Below are positions 2,965 through 53,570 of a stretch of 64,000 nt of DNA, one piece after another (the first letter of the stretch is position 1; each line of letters opens with the position of its first letter). The stretch lies in the NCBI RefSeq assembly GCF_009914755.1, contig NC_060932.1. One strand, given 5' to 3'. The notes beneath the pieces are model-generated. The model searched no databases, had not been told where the DNA came from, and saw only the letters and a list, made by a program, of their open reading frames with translations. A program made the position numbers and the translations under genes. Source of the stretch: the human T2T-CHM13v2.0 reference genome, Homo sapiens.

Positions 2965-5510
2965 TCTTGCAACAAGGTATTTATTTTGGATGAGAAAAGG
3001 AAATGGAGGACAAGGTACAGGAGTAACAAGAATTTCTTTTAACTCTCAAAGTAAATTCTGAGCTTATTTTTCTTGATTCTGCAAGCTCAGCGGCAGCAGA
3101 CCCGGTGGAGTGTACCACGAAAGGCGCAGGACCCAAAGCGACGTTATAACAAACGGCAAATTCCTCTTCCGCAAATGCACCTCAAGCCTCTCGCTGAGTC
3201 TGAGGACACAGGGAAATCATCATAAATGGATCAGAAGGTCAGCAGTGATGGTAAAGGGAATCTTGGATAAGTCATGTGCTAGGTAATGAGTGATGTTGGC
3301 TGCATTGGGGCCAGTAGCATGAACAACCTCAGTCAATAGGAATAAATACACAGAGCAGTGCTGGTCACACAGGATTTGAGACTCATTCTCATTTGAGCTC
3401 ATTTTTGTGCTTCTGCCCCGTCACACACACAGCTGAACACACTCTTGGGCTTGGCTCTACTTTTTAAAAACTATTCTACAGATACAGTAAAATATTCTCC
3501 TTGTAATGAAGTCTACTTGTGTGAATCCAGAAAGAACGAGTCAGACTGTCTCTTCATATCTAAAACCTACTGAATTTCACAGACATATCTTGACGTCAAG
3601 TTTTATTTTTCAATTTTATAGATTTTCTGAAGTGAAAGGATTGTTAAGGAAGTAAAGGAATAAAAGAATGGTTACTCTCCAGGCAGAGCAGCCTCAAGTC
3701 TTTAAAGACAGAAAGATTTATTTGGCTCTCTATTCAATTTATAGATGAGAAAACCAAGGCCCAGAGATGCTAAATGAAGCCCCCGAAGTGACATGGACAT
3801 TGAGACTCGATTCCACACTCTGTCTCCCATCCATCCCACTAGACCCTGCAGTTCTGCATGCCGGCCTGTCTCACCTGAAAGCGGAAGAGCGGCACTTTCA
3901 TGCCATGTAAAGGCATGAGCCATTTCCTGATCATCTGCTCCAGGCTGCTCCTGGGCTGCAGCTTCATCAGCTCTTGCCTGAAGTGGCTCCGCCTGAGCCT
4001 ACAGGGCCACCAGGAGAAGCATGGCAGTGAGGAGGGCGAAGGTCCTCATGGCTGGGGTGACCTGGAGGAGGGAGAGCAGGAGCAGACGAGTCGGGAGAGA
4101 GGAGTTAGCCTGGATATATAGGTCTGCAGAGAGAAGGCTCGGAGACAAGAAACCTGGAACCCTCTCAGAGAAAGGAGGTGTGCATTTCGTTGGAGACTGT
4201 GTGGGATCCCGTTGGTCTCAATGTCCCTGTTTTCTTCCTTTGCTCTCCCAGCTTTCACTCTAGTTTGAATCTCTACGTGTAGTGTTTGTGCTGGGTTGGA
4301 GAGGATGGTGACGACGAGGATCCTGGCATGTTTTTCTTGTTTCTCACTTCATTGTATATTGACTTTTTACTATTCTACCAAAGGATAACAGCAGTGCTTT
4401 TGTTCAATAAGCTCAGGATACAAATGCCTCTTTTCCTGCAGATGGCCCCACTACTCTGTACAGTCTACACTCTGGCAGCAGGCATGAATTCCTATCAAGT
4501 GAAGAGTCATTTGTTGCAGGCATCAAGGGCGTGACCACTCTCATGAAGGCATGGGGTGAGTAGCCTCCTGTAGGGGCCAGTGTGAAGAGGACAATGACCC
4601 TATCAGGCGATAGGTGACATGAACACAGTGATATTAAGGTAAAAAGTTCATCTACAGCCAAAAATGTGTTTCCGGCTCTATTGAGATATGAATAAGAATT
4701 TAAAATGGTATATATCTCCTGTATACCACCTTAGGATTTGATGTTCATGTACATGTGGTTTTTGATCATATACTATATACACAAATCAACTCAAAATGAT
4801 CGAAGACCCAAACATAGACCTGAAACCATAAAATGACGAGAGGAACATATGAAGATAACGCTTTGTCATTGGTGTCGGTAATGATATCTTTGCTATGACA
4901 CCAAAGACACAGGCAATAAACGGGAAAATAGACAAATGGGGCTGCACTGACCTCTAAAGCATCTGCACGTCAAAAAACAAACCAACAAACAAATAATCAA
5001 CTGAGTGAAAAAGCAACCCAGAAAATGAAAGACAATAATTGCAAACCCTAGGTGGTAGAAGGGGCAAATATCTAAATACATAAGGAAGTCAAACAACTCA
5101 AAAGCAAATAACAAGTAACCTGTTTGAAAAACAGGCCAAGGAGCAGGATAGGCTTCTCTCCAAATAAAAGGATGTTCTAAGGAGCTATTGTTGTCTGTAT
5201 TGGACGTGTCAAGTAGGACACGTAGATTTAGAAGGAAATTCCTTGAGGTTCTCTATTAATTGAGCCGGTAGCTAAAGCTCCCAGCAGCCACCAGAGGTTC
5301 AGAGAGAAATGCGCAGCAAGAGATTCACCCACAAGGTCCCTCTGGGGTGGCCCAGGAGTCAGAGGTCAGACTGGGGGCACAGGTTCAATGTTGAAACCTC
5401 AATGTGAAAGTTTTAAGTCTTGGGTTACTTACAGATCCTCAAGGTAGGCAGAGTGAAGAGGGAGGGCAGACAGCAGTCCTCTGTCCCGGGTCTCCTGTAG
5501 CAAGAGCAGC
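2965..5510 (-). pseudogene. DEFT1P2: Theta-defensin (retrocyclin) pseudogene, 3 exons: ~5510-5433, 4061-3875, 3199-~2965
   Basis: Spliced frame [57 protein letters not shown]|DSARGLRCICGRGICRLL*. ATG 4049-4047; premature TAG at codon 17 (4001-3999); nonapeptide RCICGRGIC 3182-3156; stop TAA 3146-3144; GT/AG sites intact; AATAAA 2985-2980. DEFT1P versus DEFT1P2 is assigned from position only. Confidence 0.93.
4770..5170 (+). mobile_element. Old L1 ORF2 fragment in intron 1 of the theta gene
   Basis: L1-like sequence (atcaactcaaaatg..agacctgaaaccataaaa..gctatgacaccaaag..gagtgaaaaagcaaccc). Same fragment at 14240-14630, 26880-27220 and 36790-37330. Confidence 0.8.
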
Positions 5511-5524
5511 CGTGCACAAACAGG

Positions 5525-5635
5525 AGAGGACTTCCCTATTTAAGAGTCATTTGGGATCAGGTGTCCTAATAACCTGGGTTACTTTCCATTGGGTTTATTA
5601 AATAACTCTGGTGGGAAGGACAGTTGAGAAATTTG
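5525..5635 (-). promoter_or_regulatory. Myeloid-type promoter of the theta gene
   Basis: TTAAATA box (5543-5537), adjacent GGAAGT ETS core, and overlapping MYB/C/EBP motif GACAGTTGAGAAAT (5619-5632). Homologous to the DEFA1 promoter. Confidence 0.7.
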
Positions 5636-5699
5636 ATGGGAAGCTGGGGTTCGGACAGGAGTCCATGGAGGGTCCCCTCATCTGCCTTTGTCAACCTTG

Positions 5700-7495
5700 C
5701 CCAGGCCCAGGCAGCAACCAACGATGGATTCTCCATGACTCCTAACACAATGGACCCCGAGATGCCTGTGCTGGTGGCTGATGCTGAGCTAGTTGCAGCA
5801 AGGGAATATTTAAAGCCCCCAGGAGAGCCTGGCCTGCATATCACAGGACACACTCTGTTAGAGAGACAAGTTCAAGTTTGACACCCATGCACAGGAGAGG
5901 ATGAGGAATCTTCCCCTGAACCAGCCTGCCCAGTACTTGAGCTCTAACCATAACAAGACACCAAAGCCGATTGGTGGGCTGGGATGTTGCAGACCACCTG
6001 GTTGAGACTGAATCCCACGTGGGCTTGTGTTAGCAGGCAGGGCAGGTTTTGCTGGGTTCGTTAAGGATGTGCACACAGTATGTGGTTCCCTGGAGTGGAC
6101 AATTGCCTCACTGCTTGGGCAATGGACAGTTTAAGGCCAAACGAGTGTCTAGGACCACTGGGGCCAAGAACTCCTGAGTTTCCTGCTGGAGACCTAATGT
6201 CTCTTGAAAGTCTCTCAGGGAGGCGGCCAAGGTGGCAGTGAGTTTGGTGTTAGCTTGCATCACCTGGTGCTCTGTGCTCCAATGCCTTGCTCTTAAGCCC
6301 ATTCTGGGCAGGCTTAAGAGTCTCCATGCACATAGCATGAGTGGGATGATCAGTGGTCGCTTGAAATATGCAGGATCAAACTCCTGTGGTTCCTCCTGTG
6401 TTATTTGAGGAGAATTCCTAAGAAGACTAGAGCACATTTTAAAATGTACCACTATCCACCGTCCTCCTCCTTCTCCTAGTCAGGTAGATGGGGTAAGGTT
6501 TCTGGAGATGAGAAAAGAATGCAGTCGCTCGAGAGGCAATAAATACCTGTGGTGAGGTTGCTGAACCCAGTGTGCACGCCGGGCAGCCCCTGCCACCATG
6601 GGAATGTCGTGCACAGCGCTGGTCCCACAGGCTGGGTGCTCAGGGCCCCCCCTGCAGCTCTGTGTGAAGGCAGCAGGCATCGGCCGGTGGAGGCCTGGGG
6701 GCAGTGGAGTGATAACTAAAGCATCTCCCTCAACCTTAAGGTAGAGGAGGCATCTCAAGCTTTGCTAGAGGCGGTCGCTGTGGCAGAGCAGTGGGGTCTC
6801 CTGTCCCTCTGAGGAAGCAGTGAATTCCTGATGTGTGGCAGGCCCAGGAACTTCAGCTTTGGAGGAAGTGAGCACCAGTCTCACCCCAGCATAAGAAGAA
6901 ATTTGGGCTCTTTGGGGAAACTGAGGCTCTGGTGACAGTTTTAGCTTCCAGGGCATTAGTAGGTGCCTGTAGGGTCGCAATGATGAGGTTATAGGGACTA
7001 AATATGAAGGGGTGTATATGAGCGAGAGGAAGATCTCCGGGTTCTGGAAATGTCCCATGTCCTGCGGAAGTGAAACCTGGACCTGCTTCCTGCACACAGA
7101 GCACACTCCAGTCCACAGGCATTTCCGCAGCACTGCATGAGCGTTATCACTGGAGAGCTGGTGAGATTCGGGCGTGGTATTCTTACACACAGTTCTCCCA
7201 AGTCCATAGTTTTCCGTAGCTTGTAGGGCAGCTTTACAATCTCACTGAGGCTCTATGGGTTCCTTGCACCATAAAGTAATGGGCTTATTCTGAAAGCAAA
7301 TGGTGATCTCAGCAAAATTCCACTCTAATGAGGTCATTTTTGGGGTAATCAGCAAAGCATGAGGTCAGGGAAGCAGCAAGTCAAGGGTTTGGGTAGTGGC
7401 CATGAGCCAGCACCGTGTACTGGAGATGGCGAGGTCCGTATTTGTAGCAGTAAGGAAAGGCTGGTTGGTGGTGATCTCGTGGTCAAAGTGATTTT
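5700..7495 (-). mobile_element. Degenerate ERVL-like internal (pol/integrase) sequence
   Basis: Minus-frame peptide GSPGGFKYSLAATSS (ORF 5566-5853) resembles the retroviral integrase core P-S-x-G-Y-K-Y-x-L-T. Homologous to ~37850-39640 and partly to 15150-15640. Confidence 0.45.
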
Positions 7496-12656: not shown

Positions 12657-13521
12657 TCAGCAGCAGAATGCCCAGAGTCTTCCCTGGTAGATGCAGGTTC
12701 CATAGCGACGTTCTCCTGCAATGCACGCTGGTATTCTGCAATAGCAGGCCATGTTTTTCCTTGAGCCTGGGACAGGGAGAGCATGAGAAATTGAGTATGG
12801 AGTTAGCAGTGGGTAAGAAAAAGAATCTCGGGGAAGTCACATGCTAGCTGACCGGTGATGCTGGCTGCACTGCAGCCGGTAGCACGAACAACCTCAGTCG
12901 ATAGGAATAAACACGCAGAGCAGTGCTTGTCACACAGAATTTGAGACTCATTCTCCTTTGCTCTCATTTTTGCATTCCTGCCCCATCACACACACACCTG
13001 AACATACCCGCAGGCTTGGCTGCAGTTTTTAAAAGCTCTTCTGTAGATAGAGTAAAATGTTCTCTTTACAACTAAGTCTACTTGTTTAGATCCAGAAATA
13101 ACTAGTCTGTCTCTTCATATCTTAAACTTAGTGAATTTCACAGACGTTTCTTGGAATCAAGTCTTTGGAGAAATAAAGTTTCTCATGTTTATTTGGCTCT
13201 CTGTTCAATTTCTAGATGAGAAAATCAATGCCCAGAGATTCTAAGTGAAGCCACCTCAGTGACATAGACTGCTGAGACCCAACTCTGGAACCTCTCTCCC
13301 GTCCTTCCCTCTAGACTTAGCAGCTCTGCATGCCTGCCTCTCTCACCTGGATGCTTTGGAGCCAAGCTTTCGTCCCATGCAAGGGAAACAACCACTTCTG
13401 GGATGTCCGCTGCAATCTGCTCCGGGGCTGCAGCAACCTCATCAGCTCTTGCCTGGAGTGGCTCAGCCTGGGCCTGCAGGGCCACCAGGAGAATGGCAGC
13501 AAGGATGGCGAGGGTCCTCAT
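12657..13521 (-). CDS. DEFA1: Neutrophil defensin 1 preproprotein (HNP-1), 94 aa; join(13521-13347,12766-12657); non-coding exon 1 ~14968-14893
   Basis: [58 protein letters not shown]|[36 protein letters not shown]. 175+110=285 nt; canonical splice sites. First mature codon GCC (Ala, 12749-12747) gives HNP-1, not HNP-3. Confidence 0.98.
13200..13300. mobile_element. MIR fragment in the defensin intron (also ~3720-3820, ~25850-25940, ~35750-35850, ~53000-53090)
   Basis: MIR core-like tttctagatgagaaaatcaatgcccagaga..ctaagtga at the equivalent intron position in all five genes. Confidence 0.65.
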
Positions 13522-14239
13522 GGCTGGGGTCACCTGGAGGAGGGAGAGCAGGAGCAGCTGTGTGGGGAGGGAGGAGCCAGCCTGGATTTATAGCTCTACT
13601 GGGAGAAGGCTCGGAGACAAGAAACCTTCCTCAATCTCAGTGAGAGGAGGTGTGCATTTTATAAGAGAGGCCCATTGGTCTCAAGGTTGCTCGAATGCTC
13701 CTGTTCTCCCAGTTTCATGCTAGTATACATCTGTACCTTTAATGTCTGTGCTAGGTTGGAGCTAATAATGACAAGAAAGACCCTGCTATGTTACTCGTGG
13801 GTTCACCTGCTTAAATATTATGATTCACTTTTTAACATTCCAAAAAGAATAGAAATTGCACTTTGATTCAACAGGCTCAGGGAACAAATGCTTCTTATTT
13901 TCTGAAGATGGGTCCTGCTGTTCTCTGGAGGTCTAGATTCTGGTGTCCTATATGAGTTCCAATGGAATAGCGAGTAATTCACTTCAGGATTCAGGTGACT
14001 TACCATCCTCATGAAGAGGTTTTTGAGGTTATGGGGTGAGTAGTCTCCTGTAGGAATCAGGGTGGAGAGGACAATGATTTTATCAGGCTAAAGGTGAAAT
14101 CAGCTCAGTGACACAGAGTGGTTTAAGTAAAAAAAAGAAAGTTTATTATTTCCACCTCTACTTAGACTTGAGTAACAATTAACAATTGTATATTTATAGT
14201 GTACACTACCTCATGATTTTATATATGTATGTATTTAAA

Positions 14240-14630
14240 TCTTTATCTCACACCATGTAGGAACATCAACTCAGAATGAATTGAAAACCTAAATGTAACA
14301 ACTGAAACCATAAACTACTAGAAGTGTATAGAAGGATAAAGCTTTTGACATTGATGTAGGTAATGATTTCTTGGCTATGACACCAAAGGCACAGGCAATG
14401 AAAGGGAAAATAGACAAGTGTGGCTTCATTTAACGCTAAAGCATCTGCACAGCAAAGGAAACAATCAACCGAGTGAAAAGATAACCCAGAAAATGAGAGA
14501 AAATATTTGCAAAACCTACATGGCCGAAGGGGCAAATATCTGAATACATAAGGAATTCCAACAACTCAATAGCAAAAATCAAACAACCTGATTGAAAGAC
14601 AGACCAAGGACCTAAATAGGTTTCTCTCAA
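14240..14630 (+). mobile_element. L1 ORF2 fragment in DEFA1 intron 1
   Basis: atcaactcagaatgaattgaaaacctaaatgtaaca..cacagcaaaggaaacaatcaaccgagtgaaaaga..agaaaatatttgcaaa. Confidence 0.85.
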
Positions 14631-14984
14631 AAGAATGTTCCAAAGACCTGTGATAGTCTCTACTGGACATGTCAACCAGGACATGTGTTTTTAGAAGGAA
14701 ACTGCTTGAGTTTCTCTATTAAGTTAGCTGGAAGCCATCGTCCCCAGCAGTCACCAGAGGTCCGGACAGACGTTCCTAGCAGGGATTCACCCGCTGGGTC
14801 CCTCTGGGGCGGCCCCACAGTCAGAGGTCAGATTGGAGGCATAGCTTCAATGATGAAAACTCAGTGTAAAGTTTAAGTTTTGTAGTACTTACAGATCCTC
14901 TAGCTAGGCAGGGTGACCAGAGAGGGCAGACAGCAGTCCTCTGTCCCAGGTCTTCTATAGCAAGGAGCAGCCGTGCACAAGTGG

Positions 14985-15090
14985 ACTTCCCCTATTTAAA
15001 GGTCTTTTGGGATGAGGTGTCCTAATTTCCGGGGTTACTTTCTGTTGGGTCCATTAAATAATTGTGGTGGCAAGGACAGTTGAGAAATTT
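14985..15090 (-). promoter_or_regulatory. DEFA1A3 myeloid promoter
   Basis: TTTAAATA box 15000-14993; ETS cores GGAAGT (14990-14985) and CCGGAAATT (15032-15024); RUNX-type TGTGGT 15063-15068; overlapping MYB/C/EBP motif GACAGTTGAGAAAT 15075-15088. Confidence 0.8.
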
Positions 15091-15149
15091 GGTGGGAAGG
15101 TGAGGTTAAAGTAGAACTCCACAGAGGAACCTCTCATCTACCTTGGTCA

Positions 15150-18100
15150 GCCCTGGCCAGGCCCAGGCAGCAACCAACTATGGATTCTCAATGGCTCCTA
15201 ACACAGTTGACCCTGTGATGCATTGGCTGTGGCTAAGCTGAACTACCTGCACCAAGGGAATATTTAAAGCCTCTGGGACAACCTGGCTGCGTATCATAGT
15301 ATACGCCCTGCAAAGAGACTAGGATAGGAATGCCACCTGCACACAGAGGAGGATTTGGAATGTGTTTCTAAAGCAGTGTCCCGAGGACCTGAGGTCTAAC
15401 CATAAAAACTAATGAAAGCCATTTGGCTGAGCTGGGATGTTGGAGAACACCCAGGTGAGACTGAGTGCTACCTGGGCTTCTGTTGCTATGTGGAACAGAC
15501 ATTTTTGGGTTCTCCTGAGTACTGGATGTACACGCGGCATGTGGTTCCCCAGAGGTGACTATCACCTGTTTGCTTGGCCAATGAACAGTTTAAGGTTAAA
15601 CAATTGTCTAGGATCATCTGGGCCAGGAACTGGTCTGAGGCATTAGCCATCAGGGTGGGAGTGGCCTTTCCAGATGGCCACCCAAGAAGGGAAGTGGGAG
15701 TCTGGGCATTCACTTTACTGCTGGTGTTGGACAGCCTCTCAGCCCTTGTGGGTCTTCAGAGAAGCATTTAGCAAAAGCTTGAGTGGTGCTTTCTGGGAGG
15801 CATAGGAGTTTCCATCCTTAACTGGTACCCATCGGAGAACAGGCGTATCCCTTAGCCCATGATCCTGTCTGGATGCTTTATGTGAATGCAAGGCTCCAAC
15901 TCTTCAGGCTGCTGTCTGGGTGTGTGCTGCGGCATTGTTAGCCCATTTGGATTGAAGCCTATGCATCCAGAGAACTACCTCCTCATCCTTAAAACACGAT
16001 CTGTGGTTGTGAGGGCTGCTGGTGTTTAAGCATTGGTGCCATGGGACCCATTCAATATCTAAGGGTTGAGTTGCCCACCTTGGACAGAGGTCAGGTTGTA
16101 TTTGGGGTACAGCCCCTCTAACAGGGCTTACAGGGAATTCCCCAGTTTTCCAGTCTGGGGTACAAATTCTGACTAGGGCTGTCTTGTTCCAGCAGCCCTC
16201 TAGGCTGCCAGGCCTGGGTTAAACAGCTACCCCACAAGCCATTTGTACATAAGATACCAAGCAAGGCCAATCATAGAGAACACTGACATCTTGTCACTCA
16301 GGGCTTTCTTCCCAGTGCTTCTATATTGACACTGATGATGGGGTTGGCTGGCACCCACTTTTCCTTGGAGCCTTTCTCCCCCATGGCCACGTTTGGTGAT
16401 GGCACTTCCATATGGTCTTTGCCTGACGTAGTTGGTGTCTCTAGTTTGAAGGCTTCTTCTCCTCGTTACTGCCTCTGACTGCACCCTCGGTGGGTTCTGG
16501 AGCAATAATCCTTACTTCCTGCCAGGAGGAGTAAGTGGGAAATATTAGCTAACCTTTAAAACCGGTAAAAAAGGGAGCTTTTGCCAGAAGCTGCATGTGA
16601 AATGGAGAGGTGTGGTGTAGCAAAAGCCTCGTGGTCCTGCTGGGTGCCAGTGGGCCTGGGGGGTTATCCTCAGAAGATCGTGGTTTACTATCCATCCACA
16701 GTCCATTGTTCAGTACATGTTTGATGTTGAGATGGTGGATGTCTTGTGATGATATGGGGAGGTCTCATTATTGGAGAACATGTAAATGATGTTATCTGTA
16801 AGGGAAAAAAGAAGCTAACTCTTCTGTGATCACCAAGATAGGCACCAAAGTGGGTCTAGCCCAATTGTGATGAGGCAGTGGTGGCCATGGGGTTGAGAGT
16901 TAAAAAAGTGACGGCCCTTGGAAGGACCTTGGTGCCTTGGGTGTCCATAGCACATCCAGAGACATTAATAACCATGACTTTAGGAGGCCACCGTGCTGCT
17001 TGAGGAGGCTGGTGACTTGGGGACGATGGACTAAATGAGTCTCCCTTAACCCACCCTCGTGTTGTGATATCCTGAGGTGGGAGCCTCCATCTGAATCAAT
17101 GATAGGTGTGGTTCTAAAGGAGATAGTGAAGAAATGCCACGTAAAGAGAACACCTGCTCCACGCAGGGCATAAGGAGCTACGGTCCCTGGAAGACTACAC
17201 GTGCAGAAGCTCATAGTTAGGACAGGTGTGCTTTGTCCAGAGGCTCTGAGAGTTGTGGTGGACGGTAGTGAGGGCCTCCCCATGAAACTCAGAACCCGGG
17301 ACCCGGGCATGGTCTAGAATCACCTGCTGGTCCAGCAACAGACTGTATCCTGCTGTGGCCCCAATGGATGTGAAGGGCTTCTGGGTGATGGCATTTGTGG
17401 GCCCCTGCAGAATGGACAAGTGGGGTATAGCTGTCTCCAAAGACACCATGTCCCAGTACATGGAGGGCCTACTGCAAAGTGGCTAGGACACTAGTGGTGA
17501 GGATTTGGTTTTTAACTGCAAGGGGACTTTGTCAGCCCACTGACGACAAATTGATGCCCAGAATCTTTACAACAGTGCTGGAGGGGCCATGAGTGTGTCC
17601 TGCAGAAACCTGGTCACTGTCCAGGAAGAGGGAGAGCGGGTGCAGCAGACCTGCCCGTGTGTCCTGGCCCAGGCGGTGGCTTTACATGCAGCACCCAGAG
17701 CGATTTGGGGAGCTGAGGGAGAACAGAGACCCTCCAGCTGGCTCAGAGTCACGGGTGGCTCCTGTCCCTGGAGGGGTGGCCTTCTCTGCCCCAACCCAGT
17801 CTTGTGCTCTCCTTCCCTGCCATTCTTGGCTGCAGGACTGGGAACCATCTGCTGGGACGTTGCTCTGTGTCTCCCTCATGGCCATGCTCCCATCCTTGCC
17901 TCCTCCATAGACTGCGGTCAGGACTCGGCAGCCCAGAGCCCCAGAAGGGTCTCAGTCTGCGCTGAGGTCACACCTAGGCATTGTCGCCATCCTCCCGCAG
18001 GTGATTCTCAAACTCCAAAACTCAAATTAGAACAGAGAGATTCTTCCCTGTGGTCCTTTTCACCTTTCTCTTTGGGCTGCACCAGAACCTTGGCAGAATT

Positions 18101-18810
18101 TTGTGGTTTAAACAAAAAAGGTGTTATGTCTACAGATTTTTTACAGTACTTTCACTTCCATGTTGATCCATAGTCCCCAACCCCAGCCTGATGTTTTCCA
18201 CTGATTGCAGCCAGTGTAGACAATCAGTGTCCACACTGTGGACACTATATGTAGATGCAGCTGAAGCTGTTTTTTCAGACACACGCATTTGAATTTTAGG
18301 GAATATTGAAGCGAGTCTAGACTCAATAAAAACCTTGACATCATTAGGCTGGGGTAAACATTCTGGAGAAGCTGTGGGTGGGGTTGTAGGTGTGAGAGGA
18401 GAGAAGCTTCCAGGAGCAGCACACATATTCTCACACATGTTTATGGTGTCTGGTGGCCCCAGCAGACAGTGTGTGTGGACCTTGGGCGGGGCCCTGGGGT
18501 TATGGTTTTGACCCAGCAGGAAAGGGTAGTCATGGAACACAGCATGCGTGTTACCATGGGGCACAGCGGGGGCTACGCAGAGGTGAGCTCTGAGGAGGAC
18601 CCTCCACCTCCCAGCTCCTCAGAGTGCATCGTGCTCTCCCTCCCCTCAGCCCTTTGTCCACTGTCCTGCAGGGAGGGTCCTGGTGCTGCCTGTGCCACAC
18701 AGTCACTCCCGGGCCTGCAGATCCAGCTGGGACAGGTAGGAGCTCCAAGTCCCTGCCCTTTGTCTGCCTTTCCCAGCCGCCTCTCACAAGCTGTCTGTGT
18801 GTCTGGTGTT
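15150..18810 (-). mobile_element. Degenerate ERVL-like internal sequence upstream of DEFA1
   Basis: GC-rich decayed coding-like DNA; integrase-like block near 15250-15300; protease-like DVLWTPKAPRSFQGP (ORF 16900-17310). 18170-18810 is homologous to 39740-40350. Confidence 0.4.
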
Positions 18811-18861
18811 GAGGATTGCAGCAGGTTTATTTTACAATAAACCATAAGGAAATAGCTTCCT

Positions 18862-19640
18862 TGAGCTGTTTTAAAATATGTTCCCTAAATTCTTTTATTA
18901 TTTTTTATAGAAAGAAAGGTTTCTGTTCTCTCCTGTTAGGTCTAGGATGGGTAACATTTTGACCAACAGACTACATGGAACTAGATGCCATGCTGTTTTC
19001 TGGGATCAGGCGCTAGTGAACTGGTGTCTTTTTCTATCTCTCTTTGGATGGTGCTGTGGTCTGAGACATTTTTCCTCTGAAATTCATATGTTGAAGTCTT
19101 AGACCCTAGGATGATAGCATTAAAAGAAAGGGTCTTTTTGGAAATGAGGAGGTCAGCATGGTGGAGTCCTCATGAATGGAATGAGTGCCCCTGTAGAAGA
19201 GGTCCCAGAGAGCTCCTTCATTCCTTCCACCAGATGAAGACACAATAAGAAGATGTTGTATATGAACCAAAAAGCTGGTTCTCACCAGACACTGATTCTG
19301 CTGCCACCTTGATTTGGACTTCTTAGCCTCCACAGGGGATTCCGAATGGTGGCAGAAGTTAGGGTGTGGCCATGCGGTGGAGGGTTGGAACAAAGAAGAT
19401 GAAGGGTCACTGTTGTCCCGGAGGACAGAGCGCTGAGAGGTAGTGAGGGTGACCTTCCAGGCAATATTAGAGTAACTTAGTTCACGACATTTTGAATTTT
19501 TTTTAGCAGTCCACATGTGCTTAGAGGGCTGGTGCCTTTGGAGCCCAGATACCATGCTTGGAGGAAGACTAAGCATCCCACAGGGAGAGGAACTGAGCCC
19601 ACCTGCAAGGATGGGCTAGAGAACACTGAGCAACCAGCTT
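18862..19640 (+). mobile_element. Older MLT1 (E/F/G-like) LTR with a nested MLT1A-like LTR (19052-19335)
   Basis: tgttttaaaatatgttccctaaattcttt.. start, interrupted at ~19052 by tgtggtctgagacatttttcctctgaaattcatatgttgaa.., resuming at ccatgcttggaggaag..gagaggaactgag. Same nesting at ~40410-41070. Confidence 0.6.
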
Positions 19641-26365: not shown

Positions 26366-26879
26366 ATGAGTCTGCTTATCGAGTGTCTGTTCTGGGTCCA
26401 AGCCAATAGTGATGATTAGGATCATGCTATAATTTCCTGTGTCTCATCTGCTGGAACATTTACTTCTTAATATTCAAAAAAGAAAAGAAACACTGCTCTT
26501 ATTCCATAAGTTCAGGCAATAAATGCCTCTTATTTTCTGAAGATGAGCCCTGCTATTCTTGGTGGTCTAGACCCTGAGGCAAGACCTGGACCCCAGCATA
26601 GAGAGTAATTCATTGCAGGATTCTGGGGCATTTCTACCCTCATGAAGGACGCTTTTGAGGTTCTGGAAGGCATAGTCTTCTGCCACTGCTAGTGTGGAGA
26701 GGACAATGGCCTCATCAGGCTATCAGTCAAATAAGCTCAGTGGGATACTAGTTAAAGAGTTGGTCTGAATAAGGTTAAAAATTTTTTTTTATTTCCAACC
26801 GTATTGAGAGGAGTGACAATTAGAAATTATATCGGTTGAAAGTACACAACCTGATAATTCAACGTATATCTACATTTGT

Positions 26880-29570
26880 ACCCTTATCTCACACCAAATG
26901 TAAAAATCAACTCTGAATGAATTGAAGACCTAAATATAAGTCTTGAAATCATAAAACTTACTAGAAGAACCCATAGGGATAAAGCTTCCTAACGTTGAAC
27001 TGGGAGATTATTTCTTGGATATTACATTAAAGGTAGAGGCAACTAAAGCAAAAATAAACCAGTTGGAGTTCATTTAACTGTAAAACATCTGCATAGCAAA
27101 GGAAATCATTAACTGAGCAAACAGGCAACCTAGCAAGAGAGAGAAATATTTGTAAACGATACATGTAATGAAAGTAAATATCTAAATATATAAAGAACTT
27201 AATAGAAAAAAACGAGTATTAATGATAAATGTGACTAAACAACTAAAAGAAACCATTATTACATAATTAAAGGAAACTGTGATGACAAAATCTTTTCAAG
27301 GGCAGAATATAATAAAGTGAAGTTACGAAGAAACACATGAAATTCTGGAATTGAGAAGTACAATAATCGAAATGTAAATTTTATGAACGGCTGCTCAATA
27401 GTATACTTAAACTGGCAGAACCAAGATTTAGGAAATGTGTGTACAGATAGATAAAAGATTATATAGTCCAGAGAACAGAGAAAAAAGATGAAGAAACAAG
27501 AATACAGTTAGAGAAAAGTGAGATACTATTAGGCATGAAAACACTCACTGGGTTGAGAGGTGAACTCTCAATCTGTTAAGGCAGCAGTCCCCAACTTTTT
27601 TGGCATCAGGGACATCTATGAAAAACTTACAACTAACATCATACTCGGTGGTTGAAAAAAAAAAAAAGGATGCTTTCCTACTGAAATTAGAAACCAGCCA
27701 AGGATATCTGAAATCAGCACTTCTACTCAACATTGTGCTAGAGGTTCTAGGGCAGTCAGGCAAGAAGGAAAAATTAAATGACATCCAGGTTAGAAAAGAA
27801 GTTGTTAAATAATCTCTGTTTGCAAAGACATGATCTTTTATATATAGAAAATCCAAAACAATTTATTAAAAAACTATTAGAACTAATAAGGGAGTTTAGC
27901 ATGGTTGAAAAATAGAAGACCAGTGCACAAAAATCAATTGTATTTTTTCTTTCATAATAAACTTTTCAAAAATGAAGCTAAAAACTCCTTTTACAAGTAG
28001 TATCAAAAGGAACATAGCTAGTCGTTGAATTTAAAAAATGTGCAAAACTTATACTCCCCAAACCACAAAAAGTTGAAGTTTTTAAGAATATCTAAATAAC
28101 TGGAAAGAGATCTTATGCTCAGGGATTGTGAGGTTTAATGTGAGATGTCAGTGCTCCCCAAACTGATCTACAGATTCAGCTCAATCTATTTCAGAATCCC
28201 TAATGACTTCTTTGTAGAAGACTTTCTTTGTAGAAACTGACTAGGTGATTCTAAAATTTATATGGAATAGCAAGGATCCCAGAATAGCTAAATAATCTTG
28301 AAAAAGAAGAAAAGATTCCTGTTTTCAAAGCATCCTACAAAGAAACGGTAATCATGACAGGGTGGTACTGCTGTAAAGATAGACATAGATCAGTGGAATA
28401 GAATTGAGAGTTCAGAAATAAAAACGTGTCTATGGTTATTAACTCACTTTCTGCAGTGGTGCCAAGGGCATTCAATGGAGGCAAGAAAATTCTTTTCAAC
28501 AAATGGTGGGGTAAACTAGATGGCCACAAGCATTAGAATGAGTTGGACCCTACCTCACACTATATTTAAAAGGTAATTCAAAATGGGTTAGAAATCTAAA
28601 TGTAAAATCTAAAAGCATAAAACTTTTATAAGGAAACATAGGGGTAAGCCTTCATAACCTATGTTTGGCAATGGATTCTTAGATATTATATCAAAAGCAT
28701 GAGCAACAAAAGAAAAAAACAGGTAATTGGATATTATCAAAATTAAAATCTTTTGTATTTCAAGTGACACTATCAAGAAAGCGAAAAGGCAACTCACAGA
28801 ATGAGAGAAAATACTTACATATCACGTATCTCATGAAAGACATGTATCCCATGTATCCAGAATATATGCAGTCCTCTTATGATAAACACTTAAAGCTAAA
28901 TAAACAAATTTATAAACGGGCAAAGGATCTCCTTAGACATTTCTCTAGGGAAGATATACAGATAGTCAATAAGCACATGAAAAAATTCTTGGCATCATTA
29001 TTTATTAGGAAATTCAAATCAAAACCACAGTGAAATACCACTTCATATCCACCAGGGTTTTTTAGAATCAAAAAGGCAGATAATAGACAAAACCTCTCGA
29101 GGATGTGGAGAAATTTACTGCTGTGGTGTAAAATGGGGCAGTCTCTGGGGAAAACAGTTTTATTGATTCTTTAATAAGTTAAACATAGAATTACCCTGTG
29201 AGCTAGGAATTCCACTCCTAGGTATATACCCAAAAGCTATGAAAGTGTATGTCCACACAAACAGTCATGGGGAAGGGCAAGAAGCCAGACATAAAAGACC
29301 ATGTATTACATGATTCTGTTTATACAAAATATCCAGAATAAGCAAATCTATGGGGACAGAAAATAGCTTAGTGGTTGCTCAGAGGTAGAGGGATGGGAAT
29401 ATCGGAAGGGAGGAATGGAAAGTCCTTGGGTTCTTTATGAAGTGATGAAAATTAATTTGAATGTGGTTATTGCTGCACATGTCTGTGAATATACTAAGCG
29501 CCACTGAATTCTGCACTTTAAATGTGTGAGTTGTACATCATGTTAATTTTATCTCGATAGAGTGGCTTTA
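26880..29570 (+). mobile_element. Old L1 (L1M) fragments with a short MER1-like piece at ~27578-27613
   Basis: ORF2-like peptides DAFLLKLETSQGYLKSALLLNIVLEVL and DIQIVNKHMKKF; L1M 3'UTR ending near 29570. Confidence 0.85.
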
Positions 29571-37330: not shown

Positions 37331-37689
37331 TAAAATGATGTTTTAGCAGCTATGAGTATGATCATCTCTGTTGGACACGTTAAGTAGGACATGTGTGTTT
37401 GGAAGGAAACAGCTTGAGTTTATTAACTGAGCTCATAGCCACTGCCCCTAGCAACCAACAGTCCCAGATGGCAAAATATTCCCTCACTGGGTCCCTCTGA
37501 GGTGGCCCCATAATCACGGGTCAGATTGGGAACACAGCTTCCTGGGTGGAACCGCAGTATGAAAGTTTAAGTTTTGTATTGTATTACTGACAGATTGTTA
37601 AGCTACGTGAGGCTACCAGAGTGGGCAGAGGACAGTCCCCTGTCCCAGGCCTCATGTTGCCACATCAGCAGCTGTGCACAAGCAGGAAA

Positions 37690-37795
37690 GGACTTCCCCT
37701 ATTTAAGGGTCTTTTGGGAACAGGTGTCCTAATTTTCAGGGTTACTTTCTATTGAGTAGTTTAAATACCTGCTGGTAAGAGCAGTTGAGAAATTT
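37690..37795 (-). promoter_or_regulatory. Myeloid-type promoter of DEFA7P
   Basis: TTAAATA 37706-37700; GGGGAAGT ETS site; CAGTTGAGAAAT MYB/C/EBP motif 37782-37793. The distal CCGGAAA and TGTGGT motifs seen in DEFA1 are altered. Confidence 0.65.
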
Positions 37796-37849
37796 GTTGG
37801 GAAGCTGGCATTAAAATAGGAGTTCACAGAGGGATGCCTTGTCTATGGT

Positions 37850-40350
37850 CAGCCCTGGCCAGGCCCAGGTAGCTACCAACTATGAATTCTCCATGACTCC
37901 TAAGACAATTGACCCTGTGATGCCTACACTGGTGCTGAGGCTGAACTATCTGGACCAAAAGAATATTGAAAGCCACTGGGACAGCCTGGCTGTGTATCAT
38001 AGTATCCACCCTGTAAGGAGGCTAGGCTAAGAATGCCACTCACACACAGATGAGGATTTGGAATATGGCCTGAACCAGCCTCCTGGGAACCTGGGGTCCA
38101 ACTATAAAAACAAATCAAAGCTGTTTGGACAAACAGGTGTGTTGGAGAATGCCCGGGTGAGAGGAGTACCACCTCGGCTTGTGTTGCTAAGCAGGGCAGG
38201 TTTGTTGGACTTTCCGGAATTAAGGATGTACATGCAACATGTGGTTTCTTAGAGGGAGCAACCACCTCTTCTCTTGACCTTAGAGAGTTCAGACTGAACA
38301 ATTTTTTAGGACCGTTTGGGCCTAGAAATCCTGAGATTTTTAGGTGAGACCTAATGTGTCTCAGAGGTCTCACAAGGGAGGGGGCCAAGGTGGCAGCAAG
38401 ACGGTGCTGTGTGCTCAAACACCTTGTTCTAAAGCCAGTTCAGGGCAGGCTTAATGGCCACCATACACTCAGCATGAGTGGGATGATTACTCTATGCTTG
38501 GGATACACAGGAATGAGCTGGTATGGTCCCTCCTGGGTTATTTGAGGGGGAGTCCTAGGGAGAATAGTGCACATTTTAAAATGTACCACTCTCCACCCTC
38601 CTCCTCCTCCTCATAGTGAGGTAAATGGCATCAGTTTTCTGGAAATGGGAAAAGAATGCAGTCACTCCTGAGGGAATAAATACCTACAGCGAGGTTGCCA
38701 AGCCCAGTGTGCAGGCCGGGCAGCCACTGTTGCCATGGGAGGGTTGTGCACAGCGCTGGTCCAGCAGGCCGGATACACAGGACCTCCCCTGCAGCTCTGT
38801 GTGAAGGCAGCAGGCACCGCGCTGTGGAGGACTTGGGGCAGTGGAGTGAGAGCTGAAGCGTCTCCCTCAGTCTTAAGGAGGCAAGAGGCATCTCAAGCCT
38901 CGCTAGGGGTGGTCGCTGTTGCAGAGCAGTGAAGTCGGCTGCCCCTATGAGGAAGCAGTGAGTTCCTGATCTGTAGCAGCCCAGCAATTTCACCGTTGGA
39001 GGAAGTGGGCACTGGACTCATTCCAGCAGAGGAAGAGATTAGGGCCATTCAGGGAACTGGGCCCCAGATGATGGTTTTAGGTTCTAGGGCATTAGTAGGT
39101 GCCTGAAGGGCCCAGTGGATATGGATGTAGAGGCAAAATGAGAAGGGGTGTGTGTGCACGTGGGGAAAGTCTGCTGGTTTTGGGAAACGTCCAGTGTCCT
39201 GCAGAAGTGAAACCTGGACCAGCCTCCTGCACACAGAACACACTCCAATCCACAGGCATTTCCTCAGTAACACATGAGCGTGCTGTTATGGGGAGAGCTG
39301 GTTAAATTTGGGTGTGATGTTGTTACGCACAGGTCTCCCAAGTCCATAGTTTTTGCATAACTTGTAAGGCAGCCTCATGGTGTGACCTAGGCCCTATGGT
39401 TTCCTTGCACTAGAGGGTATAGCTAATGGGGTTACATAAAGACAAATGGTGTTCCCAGCAAAATACCGCTCTATGAAGTCACCTGCAGGGTACGCAACAA
39501 AGCATGAGCTAAGAGAGCAGCTAAGCAGGGGTCCAGGTACTGGATGTGAGCCAGCACCATGTCCTGGCGGTGGTGAGGTCCCTACCCTGTAGCAGTAAGG
39601 AGAGGCTGGTTTAGTGGTGACCTCACCATCAAGGTGAGATTCCTTGGAGTCCCCTGGTTCTGGTGAGGCTGTTGTTTTCCTTGACAACCCTTGGGTTGGG
39701 GCGCTGTGGTCTGAGGCTGTTGCCATCCATGACCCCTACCCCAATCGATTTTTCCATGAATTTCTACAAGTGTAGACTTCCAGTGTAGACGTGGTTGAAA
39801 CTGTTCTCTCATACACATGCATTTGAATTTCCAGAGAATATTGAAGTGAGCCTGCGCTAGGTTGGAGCTGACCATAAGAGCCTTGACACCATCAGGCTGG
39901 AGTATATATTCTGCGGAAGCTGTGGGTGGGGCTGCAGGTGTGGGTGTGACAGGAGAGAGGGCTCCCGGAGCAGCAAGGATATTCCCACACAGCTGAGGCT
40001 GTCTGGTGGCCCCAGCAGACACAGGGTGTGTGGACCTTGGGCATGGCCCTGGAACATCGTTTTGACCTGGTAGGGAAGGGCAGTCTTGGAACCTAGCGTG
40101 CGTGTTAGCGTGGGGCAGGGCGGAGGCTGCGTGGGGGTGAGCTCTGAGGACTGTCCACCTCCCAGCTCCTCAGAGAGCACCACCCTGTCCCTCCCCTCAG
40201 CCCTTTGTCCACCCGCCTGTGGGGAGGGTCCTGGTGCTGCCTGTGCCACACAGCGACTCCCACGCCTGCAGATCCAGCTGGGACAGGCAGGAGTTCCAAG
40301 TCCCTGGCTTTTGTCTGCCTTTCCCAGCCACCTCTCACAAGCTGTCTATC
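37850..40350 (-). mobile_element. Degenerate ERVL-like internal sequence upstream of DEFA7P
   Basis: Homologous to 5700-7495 and 18170-18810. Confidence 0.4.
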
Positions 40351-53316: not shown

Positions 53317-53381
53317 GGCTGGGGTCACCTGCAGGAGGGAGAGCAGGAGTGGATATGTGGGGAGTGAGGAGTCAGCCTGGA

Positions 53382-53570
53382 TTTATAGCTCTGCTGGGAG
53401 AAGACCTGAGACAGAAGCTGCAGTGAGAGGAGGTGGGCATGTGATTGGGAGGGGAAGGACTGCCTTTGTTCTCAAGATCCCTTTGATGCTCCTCTTTCTC
53501 CCAGCTTTCATCAAAGCGTGAGTCTGTATGCTTAATGCCTCTTCTTGATCCAAGGTGTTAATGATGATAA
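53382..53570 (-). promoter_or_regulatory. DEFA5 promoter with TATA box and three TCF/LEF (Wnt) motifs
   Basis: TATAAA 53387-53382; CTTTGTT 53464-53470, CTTTGAT 53481-53487, ATCAAAG 53510-53516; GATA-type TGATAAG ~53564-53570. DEFA5 is an established beta-catenin/TCF target. Confidence 0.85.

What the first reader, a model, noticed from the sequence alone, without database searches (positions are those of the whole stretch)
14660..15300. The myeloid defensin promoter and exon 1 look like a co-opted retroviral LTR
Seen: a ~470-bp block (DEFA1 ~15125-14660; DEFT ~5670-5195; DEFA7P ~37830-37370) occurs only in the three-exon genes. It lies directly downstream of co-oriented integrase-like DNA (GGFKYSLA) and abuts an L1 fragment on its other side. 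Its order is: transcription-factor sites, TATA, a short transcribed segment, then a donor followed by what resembles a decayed poly(A) signal (GTAAGTACTACA / GTAAGTAACCCA / GTCAGTAATACA; compare GTRAGTAATAAA in ERVL-class LTRs), then an end such as ..gtgtccaaCA. Inference: a U3-R-U5 layout, i.e. an ERVL-like 3' LTR whose poly(A) signal decayed and whose donor splices into an older two-exon enteric gene, giving neutrophil expression. No matching 5' LTR is evident.
Basis: inference. Interest (0 to 1): 0.72.

Follow-up and report, generated by a model that had tools for sequence, protein, structure and literature searches.

The report
Neutrophil defensin promoter is an old LTR
The promoter, first exon and first splice donor of the human neutrophil alpha-defensin genes lie inside one copy of an old retroviral-type long terminal repeat that also occurs on other chromosomes, so these abundant immune genes appear to run on a borrowed retroelement promoter.

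Summary
The core of the finding holds. A 520-bp element (window 15205-14686, minus strand) contains the DEFA3 TATA box, transcription start, all of exon 1 and the exon-1 donor.

**It is a dispersed repeat.** The genome holds 9 copies in the defensin cluster and 8 on other chromosomes (6 full length), 65-70% identical to DEFA3, with the same ends (TG...CA). A related family of about 640 bp, with at least 122 candidate loci, shares its last 210 bp.

**It behaves like an LTR.** With ends fixed by alignment, 5 of 17 dispersed copies have perfect 5-bp target-site duplications, against 1 of 272 cross-copy controls. The TATA box, a GGAA site and the GTAAGT donor also occur in dispersed copies, so they came with the element.

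**It tracks the myeloid genes.** Cluster copies sit only at myeloid-clade genes and form one clade (support 1.000).

**The old gene structure survives.** The enteric-type TATA box is intact in intron 1, and the exon-2 acceptor already exists in the DEFA5 5'UTR.

**Not supported:**
- the "integrase-like" upstream DNA;
- a 3' LTR of a provirus;
- a clean empty site;
- a target-site duplication at the defensin copy.

The family name could not be assigned because no Dfam library was available. Seven literature searches found no paper describing this origin.

The parts
14686..15205 (-). LTR-type repeat copy at DEFA3 (family A): starts TGTGTTAGGAG, ends TTCTAAAAACA
   Evidence: Four full-length copies on chr15, chr16, chr4 and chrX match window about 15209-14689 at 66-69% identity. 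Ends located.
14969..15205 (-). Promoter part (U3-like), 237 bp upstream of the annotated start
   Evidence: Aligned to dispersed copies over its whole length.
14985..15000 (-). TTTAAATA (15000-14993) followed by GGGGAAGT (14992-14985): TATA-like box with an ETS/PU.1-type GGAA site
   Evidence: Located. TTAAATA is exact in 3 of 8 dispersed copies and one base off in 5. The GGAA core is present in 2 of 8. Function is taken from a passage in PMC3101357 citing Yaneva 2006.
14893..14968 (-). DEFA3 exon 1 (non-coding), entirely inside the repeat
   Evidence: RefSeq annotation supplied with the finding; alignment.
14881..14892 (-). Donor GTAAGT plus hexamer ACTACA
   Evidence: Located. GT[AG]AGT is present at this column in 4 of 6 full-length dispersed family-A copies and 6 of 11 family-B copies. 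The hexamer reads AATAAA in the chr15 copy.
14686..14899 (-). 3' part shared with the related, more numerous family B
14636..14685 (.). 50-bp spacer between the repeat end and the neighbouring high-copy repeat
14235..14635 (.). High-copy interspersed repeat fragment (L1-like by recall) in intron 1
   Evidence: 3875 first-look candidates, 40 scored, about 72-77% identity outside the cluster.
13584..13594 (-). Retained enteric-type TATA box GCTATAAATCC in intron 1
   Evidence: Same string in DEFA5 upstream of its annotated start at 53358.
13528..13542 (-). Exon-2 acceptor CTCCTCCAG|GTGACC, 12 nt before the ATG
   Evidence: DEFA5 has CTCCTGCAGGTGACC inside its exon 1.
5223..5749 (-). Same repeat at DEFT1P2 (exon 1 at 5495-5433 lies inside)
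37396..37907 (-). Same repeat upstream of DEFA7P
15206..17710 (-). Upstream DNA specific to three-exon genes; not a repeat and not ERV-like
   Evidence: Only defensin-cluster matches, plus one marginal 51-bp hit on chr2. Pfam gave 0 hits.

Best explanation
One copy of an old LTR retroelement lies upstream of an older two-exon alpha-defensin gene, in the same orientation. It became that gene's promoter and non-coding first exon.

The element's own TATA box, with the adjoining GGAA (PU.1-type) site, sets the start at 14968. Its transcribed segment is exon 1. Its own GTAAGT, just before its poly(A)-type hexamer, serves as the donor. That donor splices to an acceptor that already existed in the old 5'UTR, 12 nt before the ATG, bypassing the old TATA box that still sits in intron 1.

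The hexamer is no longer AATAAA in any defensin copy. The gene then duplicated into the whole myeloid clade: DEFA1/3, DEFA4, DEFA8P, DEFA10P, DEFT1P and DEFA7P.

Shown: the repeat nature of the block, its ends, its shared motifs, its distribution, and that the cluster copies form one clade.

Inferred: that the element, rather than later changes or the upstream unique DNA, caused expression in neutrophil precursors, and that the copy is a solo LTR.
For: - Dispersed copies: the 641-bp query gave 22 matches, 9 in the cluster and 13 on 12 other chromosomes. Searches with the chr16 and chr4 copies found the defensin copies back and added two more copies.
- Common ends: four full-length copies stop within a few bases of window 15209 and 14689. 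Flanks are unrelated; 120 nt upstream gave z between -1.3 and 2.1 for defensin against dispersed copies.
- Termini are TG...CA.
- Target-site duplications: 5 of 17 dispersed copies are perfect 5/5 with ends fixed by alignment columns, against 1 of 272 cross-copy controls.
- A related family shares window 14899-14690: 122 first-look candidates, 40 scored, 47 matches (alignment).
- The TATA box, GGAA site, donor and hexamer are shared with dispersed copies.
- The 7 aligned cluster copies form one clade (support 1.000, stem 0.134), while the dispersed copies form a star. Mean K2P is 0.405 among dispersed copies and 0.216 among defensin copies.
- Copies occur only at genes that PMC4018336 (passages read) places in the myeloid clade.
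- The old TATA box and the acceptor are as described.
- A passage in PMC3101357 cites Yaneva 2006: PU.1 plus a TTTAAA element create the operational, cell-specific TATA box of the defensin-1 promoter. Both lie at 15000-14985, inside the element.
Against: - The defensin copies show no target-site duplication: 1-3 of 5 bases match.
- There is no clean empty site. DEFA6 matches DEFA3 at 13305-14110 and 17711-19330, but holds 2.25 kb of unrelated DNA where DEFA3 holds 3.6 kb. The element therefore sits in a larger myeloid-specific segment that could also carry regulatory DNA.
- No proviral copy, internal region, primer-binding site or polypurine tract was found, so 'retroviral' rests on LTR features alone.
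- The hexamer is AATAAA in only 1 of 6 full-length dispersed family-A copies.
- Most family-B copies read ACTAAA at that site and carry a canonical AATAAA about 110 nt upstream, so the U3/R/U5 borders are uncertain.
- No family name was assigned because no Dfam library was available.
- No expression data on dispersed copies were examined.
Confidence: 0.85

Rival explanations
1. One reading: the block is the 3' LTR of a 5'-truncated ERVL-type provirus whose decayed integrase lies directly upstream.
For: The peptide strings GFKYSLG (15271-15251) and PGGFKYSLAA (DEFT1P2 copy) are present and co-oriented. The defensin copy lacks a target-site duplication, as a lone 3' LTR would.
Against: - Pfam gave 0 families at E<=1 in 6 frames of 15200-19500, and no integrase in 6 frames of two paralogues.
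- The PDB search gave no integrase.
- Window 15200-17800 has no copies outside the cluster apart from one 51-bp hit at E about 1e-4, unlike the LTR itself.
- Upstream flanks of the dispersed copies are unrelated to the defensin flank.
- The motif lies only about 45 bp from the LTR start, leaving no room for the rest of pol. No polypurine tract is present.
Confidence: 0.05
2. The element is present but incidental. Myeloid expression depends mainly on the myeloid-specific unique DNA upstream (15206-17710) or on changes made after insertion, and the LTR supplied only raw sequence for the start site and exon 1.
For: - The LTR sits inside a 3.6-kb segment that differs wholly from the enteric layout.
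- DEFA4 and DEFA8P share the unique upstream DNA with DEFA1/3.
- The leading T of the TTTAAA form is seen only in DEFA1/3 and DEFA8P; other copies read CTTAAATA.
- The clade has a long stem (0.134) in which changes could have accumulated.
Against: - The TATA box and GGAA site are at the same columns in dispersed copies.
- The experimentally defined cell-specific core element lies inside the LTR (citing passage only).
- DEFT1P2, DEFA10P and DEFA7P share upstream DNA only as far as 15631 yet keep the same exon-1 structure.
Confidence: 0.1
3. The dispersed copies are not a mobile element but old copies of the defensin promoter region, or a non-LTR repeat.
For: Family A is small (8 dispersed copies found) and no internal region is known.
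Against: - Copies have discrete TG...CA ends and 5-bp duplications.
- The tree is a star, with the defensin copies as one derived clade.
- A sister family with at least 122 candidate loci shares the 3' part.
- The copies span promoter and intron, so they are not retrocopies of the mRNA.
Confidence: 0.02

Closest known systems
LTR-derived tissue-specific promoters with an LTR-encoded first exon, for example placental CYP19A1, salivary amylase and IL2RB (examples recalled, not checked here)
   Same: A sense-oriented LTR upstream of an older promoter supplies the TATA box, start site, a non-coding first exon and a donor that splices to the original gene. The old promoter remains downstream.
   Different: Here the LTR promoter is the only annotated start of the selected transcripts of a whole gene clade. 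It was multiplied by gene duplication, giving 9 cluster copies. No paper describing it was found in 7 searches.
ERVL / ERVL-MaLR (class III) solo LTRs
   Same: Length of about 520-640 bp, TG...CA ends and 5-bp target-site duplications. The class rule is recalled.
   Different: No pol-bearing or MaLR-type internal region was found, and no match to a named family could be run. Class assignment is therefore only compatible, not shown.
Enteric alpha-defensin genes DEFA5 and DEFA6 (two exons)
   Same: Coding exons, about 600-800 bp of upstream DNA, the TATA box GCTATAAATCC and the CAG|GT site are shared with DEFA3.
   Different: The enteric genes start transcription at the old TATA box and carry no copy of the element.

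Membership tests
LTR retroelement (solo LTR) | Dispersed copies with the same discrete ends and unrelated flanks | tested here: met
   13 matches on 12 other chromosomes. Four full-length copies end within a few bases of 15209 and 14689. Flank similarity is not above shuffles.
LTR retroelement (solo LTR) | Terminal TG...CA | tested here: met
   DEFA3 runs TGTG...ACA. Most dispersed copies of families A and B do the same.
LTR retroelement (solo LTR) | Target-site duplication of fixed length | tested here: met
   Met at family level: 5 of 17 dispersed copies are perfect 5/5, against 1 of 272 controls. The defensin copies themselves match at only 1-3 of 5 bases, so it is not met at this locus.
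LTR retroelement (solo LTR) | Promoter, transcribed segment and poly(A) signal in one orientation (U3-R-U5) | tested here: inconclusive
   The TATA box is shared. The hexamer is AATAAA in 1 of 6 full-length family-A copies and a variant in the rest. Family B has another AATAAA upstream, so the borders are uncertain.
LTR retroelement (solo LTR) | Proviral copies: two LTRs flanking an internal region with a primer-binding site and polypurine tract | tested here: not met
   No paired copies appear in the match lists. Nothing is shared next to the LTR in 12 loci with 3-kb flanks.
ERVL (class III) LTR | 5-bp target-site duplication | tested here: met
   That 5 bp marks class III is recalled knowledge.
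ERVL (class III) LTR | Match to a curated ERVL LTR or contiguity with ERVL pol | not testable with these tools
   No Dfam/Repbase library was available. Pfam found no pol next to the defensin copy.
Exapted LTR promoter with LTR-encoded first exon | Annotated start, first exon and donor inside a sense-oriented LTR, spliced to the coding exons | tested here: met
   RefSeq exon 1 (14968-14893) lies within 15205-14686, with the donor at 14892. The same holds for DEFT1P2 exon 1 (5495-5433).
Exapted LTR promoter with LTR-encoded first exon | Experimentally defined promoter elements lie in the LTR | tested here: inconclusive
   The TTTAAA plus PU.1 element named in the passage of PMC3101357 (citing Yaneva 2006) matches 15000-14985 by sequence. 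The primary paper was not seen.

The most novel reading that the evidence does not exclude
A single LTR capture, before the primate-treeshrew split and possibly earlier in placental mammals, created the neutrophil branch of the alpha-defensins. It did so by supplying a PU.1-dependent TATA module that the element already carried. Other surviving copies of this small LTR family, for example the chr15 copy that keeps both TTAAATA and GGGGAAG, may then still have promoter or enhancer activity restricted to myeloid precursors.
Probability: 0.35. Interest if true: 0.75.

Novelty: new member of a known kind. Interest (0 to 1): 0.6.

Why it matters
HNP1-3 are among the most abundant neutrophil proteins. 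How the three-exon myeloid genes arose from two-exon enteric-type genes has been described mainly as duplication and divergence.

An LTR origin gives a concrete mechanism for the change of cell type and for the extra exon. It places the published cell-specific TATA/PU.1 module in a retroelement. It also makes the question testable, by comparing species, by assaying dispersed copies, and by deleting the element.

It is one more case of a well-known process, not a new kind of process. Standard repeat annotation probably already marks the element, though I could not see that annotation.

Tried and rejected
- **Integrase or provirus upstream:** rejected. Pfam found nothing in 6 frames of 15200-19500 or in 6 frames of two paralogues. 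The PDB phmmer search found no integrase. The upstream DNA is not repeated elsewhere.
- **Shared internal sequence between the chr15 copy and DEFA3:** blastn ran 28 bp past the LTR start, but the local score was no better than shuffles (z 0.9, 72 of 300 shuffles as good).
- **Empty site in enteric genes:** none found. DEFA5 and DEFA9P homology stops at about 14110-14132 and DEFA11P at 14555. DEFA6 resumes at 17711 with unrelated DNA in between.
- **Pfam on the neighbouring repeat (14150-14751, 6 frames):** 0 hits. Its L1 identity therefore rests on copy number and my recall.
- **Shanahan 2011 (PMC3019906),** on vestigial mouse myeloid defensin genes, is not held.
- **Literature:** searches gave no paper linking these genes to an LTR. 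Supplements of catalogues of transposon-derived promoters were not searched and may list it.
Full report
**What was checked.** The finding claims that the promoter and exon 1 of the three-exon (myeloid) alpha-defensin genes are a co-opted retroviral LTR, lying next to integrase-like DNA. I read the region on the gene strand. I then asked whether the block occurs anywhere outside the defensin cluster, which is the test that separates a mobile element from unique promoter DNA.

**The block is a dispersed repeat with discrete ends.**
- A search of the window's own genome with 14660-15300 gave 22 matches.
  - Nine are in the chr8 defensin cluster: DEFA3, DEFA1B, DEFA1, DEFA8P, DEFA4, DEFT1P2, DEFT1P, DEFA10P and DEFA7P, assigned from the coordinates in the annotation supplied.
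  - Thirteen are on 12 other chromosomes.
- After fetching those loci, blastn showed four full-length copies, on chr15, chr16, chr4 and chrX. They match window about 15209-14689 at 66-69% identity.
- Searches starting from the chr16 and chr4 copies recovered the defensin copies and added copies on chr5 and chrX.
- In total I found 8 dispersed copies of this "family A": 6 full length and 2 with only the 5' part.
- In the alignments the element starts with TG and ends with CA. In DEFA3 it runs 15205-14686, 520 bp.
- Homology stops at those ends. The 120 nt upstream of the defensin copies score no better against the upstream flanks of dispersed copies than against shuffles (z from -1.3 to 2.1).

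**A larger sister family shares the 3' part.**
- Six further hits match only window 14899-14690.
- Among themselves these hits share a different 5' part of about 430 bp.
- A search with one such "family B" copy gave 122 first-look candidates, of which 40 were scored, and 47 matches.
- Related LTR families commonly share the R-U5 part and differ in U3. That is general knowledge, not something tested here.

**Target-site duplications.**
- I fixed the ends by alignment columns and compared the 5 bases outside each end.
- Four of 11 family-B copies and 1 of 6 full-length family-A copies have perfect 5/5 duplications: CCCTT, CTAGG, CTTGC, CACTA and CCAAG. One more copy matches 4/5.
- Pairing the upstream flank of one copy with the downstream flank of another gave 1 perfect match in 272 pairs.
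- This is strong evidence for integration with a 5-bp duplication, which fits class III (ERVL/MaLR) elements by recalled knowledge.
- The defensin copies themselves show no duplication (1-3 of 5 bases).

**The functional motifs belong to the element** (coordinates, comparisons).
- TTTAAATA lies at 15000-14993 and GGGGAAGT at 14992-14985, with the annotated start at 14968.
- In the 8 dispersed copies, TTAAATA is exact in 3 and one base off in 5. The GGAA core is present in 2, and the rest are one change away.
- The donor GTAAGT (14892-14887) is GT[AG]AGT at the same column in 4 of 6 full-length family-A copies and 6 of 11 family-B copies.
- The next hexamer reads differently across copies:

| Copy | Hexamer |
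|---|---|
| chr15 | AATAAA |
| chrX (second copy) | AATTAA |
| chr5 | AATCAA |
| chrX (first copy) | ACTAAA |
| DEFA1/3 | ACTACA |
| DEFA4, DEFA8P, DEFA10P | AACACA |
| DEFT1P2 | AACCCA |
| DEFA7P | AATACA |

- One caution: most family-B copies read ACTAAA at this site and carry a canonical AATAAA about 110 nt upstream. That upstream signal aligns to DEFA3 exon 1, so the exact U3/R/U5 borders remain uncertain.

**Link to published promoter work.**
- A passage in PMC3101357 cites Yaneva et al. 2006. [quoted passage not shown] I did not see the primary paper.
- By sequence, that module is 15000-14985, inside the element.
[quoted passage not shown] I did not map that site.

**Distribution and history.**
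- Cluster copies occur only at genes that PMC4018336 (passages read) places in the simian myeloid clade: DEFA1/3, DEFA8/10/DEFT, DEFA4 and DEFA7.
- None lies at the enteric clade genes DEFA5, DEFA6 and DEFA9/11.
- That paper mentions neither LTRs, transposons nor promoters (0 occurrences each).
- In a FastTree tree of 13 copies (the two truncated copies left out), the 7 cluster copies form one clade with support 1.000 and a stem of 0.134. The dispersed copies form a star.
- Mean K2P distances are 0.405 among dispersed copies and 0.216 among defensin copies.
- With a recalled neutral rate of about 2.2e-9 per site per year, the family would have been active roughly 90 million years ago. This is a rough figure.
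- The long stem means one capture well before the duplications that produced the human paralogues.

**The older two-exon layout is still visible**.
- The enteric TATA box GCTATAAATCC, upstream of the DEFA5 start, is intact in DEFA3 intron 1 at 13594-13584.
- The exon-2 acceptor CTCCTCCAG|GT corresponds to CTCCTGCAGGT inside DEFA5 exon 1.
- The new transcript therefore splices into a site that already existed in the old 5'UTR.

**What is not supported.**
- The "integrase-like" DNA. The peptide strings are real, but no integrase similarity was found.
  - Pfam found nothing in 6 frames of 15200-19500 at E<=1.
  - Pfam found no integrase in two paralogues.
  - The PDB sequence search gave one unrelated hit at E=0.99.
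- The upstream DNA as ERV internal sequence. Window 15200-17800 has no copies outside the cluster except one 51-bp hit.
- A simple insertion could not be shown. DEFA6 matches DEFA3 at 13305-14110 and again at 17711-19330, but has 2.25 kb of unrelated DNA where DEFA3 has 3.6 kb.
- The element therefore sits in a larger segment specific to three-exon genes, which may also contribute to regulation.
- No proviral copy, primer-binding site or polypurine tract was found.

**Neighbouring repeat.** Window 14235-14635 is a high-copy repeat, with 3875 first-look candidates of which 40 were scored. A 50-bp spacer separates it from the element. I call it L1-like from recall only; Pfam gave nothing.

**Novelty.**
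- LTRs that supply tissue-specific promoters and first exons are a well-known kind.
- I found no paper stating this for the neutrophil defensins. Seven searches were run, two of which returned 0 papers.
- Standard repeat annotation probably marks the element, and supplements of promoter catalogues were not searched.
- I rate it a new member of a known kind, of moderate to good interest because of the prominence of these genes and because the origin of the myeloid branch becomes testable.

Noticed in passing
window 13584-13594 and 13528-13542; DEFA5 about 53358-53400: The enteric-type TATA box is letter-for-letter intact in intron 1 of DEFA3, DEFT1P2 (TATATATCC variant) and DEFA7P. The myeloid exon-2 acceptor is present inside DEFA5 exon 1. 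The old promoter might therefore still be usable in the myeloid genes.
   Followed up: partly
window 26876-27202 (DEFA11P upstream) against 14243-14555: DEFA11P belongs to the enteric clade and has no LTR copy, yet it shares the high-copy repeat fragment at the collinear position with the three-exon genes. DEFA5, DEFA6 and DEFA9P do not. This looks like an intermediate or recombinant upstream structure.
   Followed up: partly
L015, L016, L029, L034 (family-B copies), middle of the element: Family-B LTR copies carry a (CT)n(GT)n microsatellite of very variable length between their AATAAA and the GTAAGT motif.
   Followed up: no
L017 (chr1:20495100-20495406): Two partial copies of the shared 3' part lie head to head (inverted) and overlap by about 15 bp.
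   Followed up: no
L003 (DEFA1) against window 14680-14686: DEFA1 has a short duplication (ATGTCAC ATGTCC) just outside the 3' end of the element that DEFA3 lacks. Otherwise the two LTR copies are 99.8% identical.
   Followed up: no
L023 about 3255-4636 (DEFA4 locus): DEFA4 has about 1.4 kb inserted at the point corresponding to window 15631-15634. That is the same point at which homology with DEFT1P2, DEFA10P and DEFA7P ends, which suggests a recurrent breakpoint.
   Followed up: no
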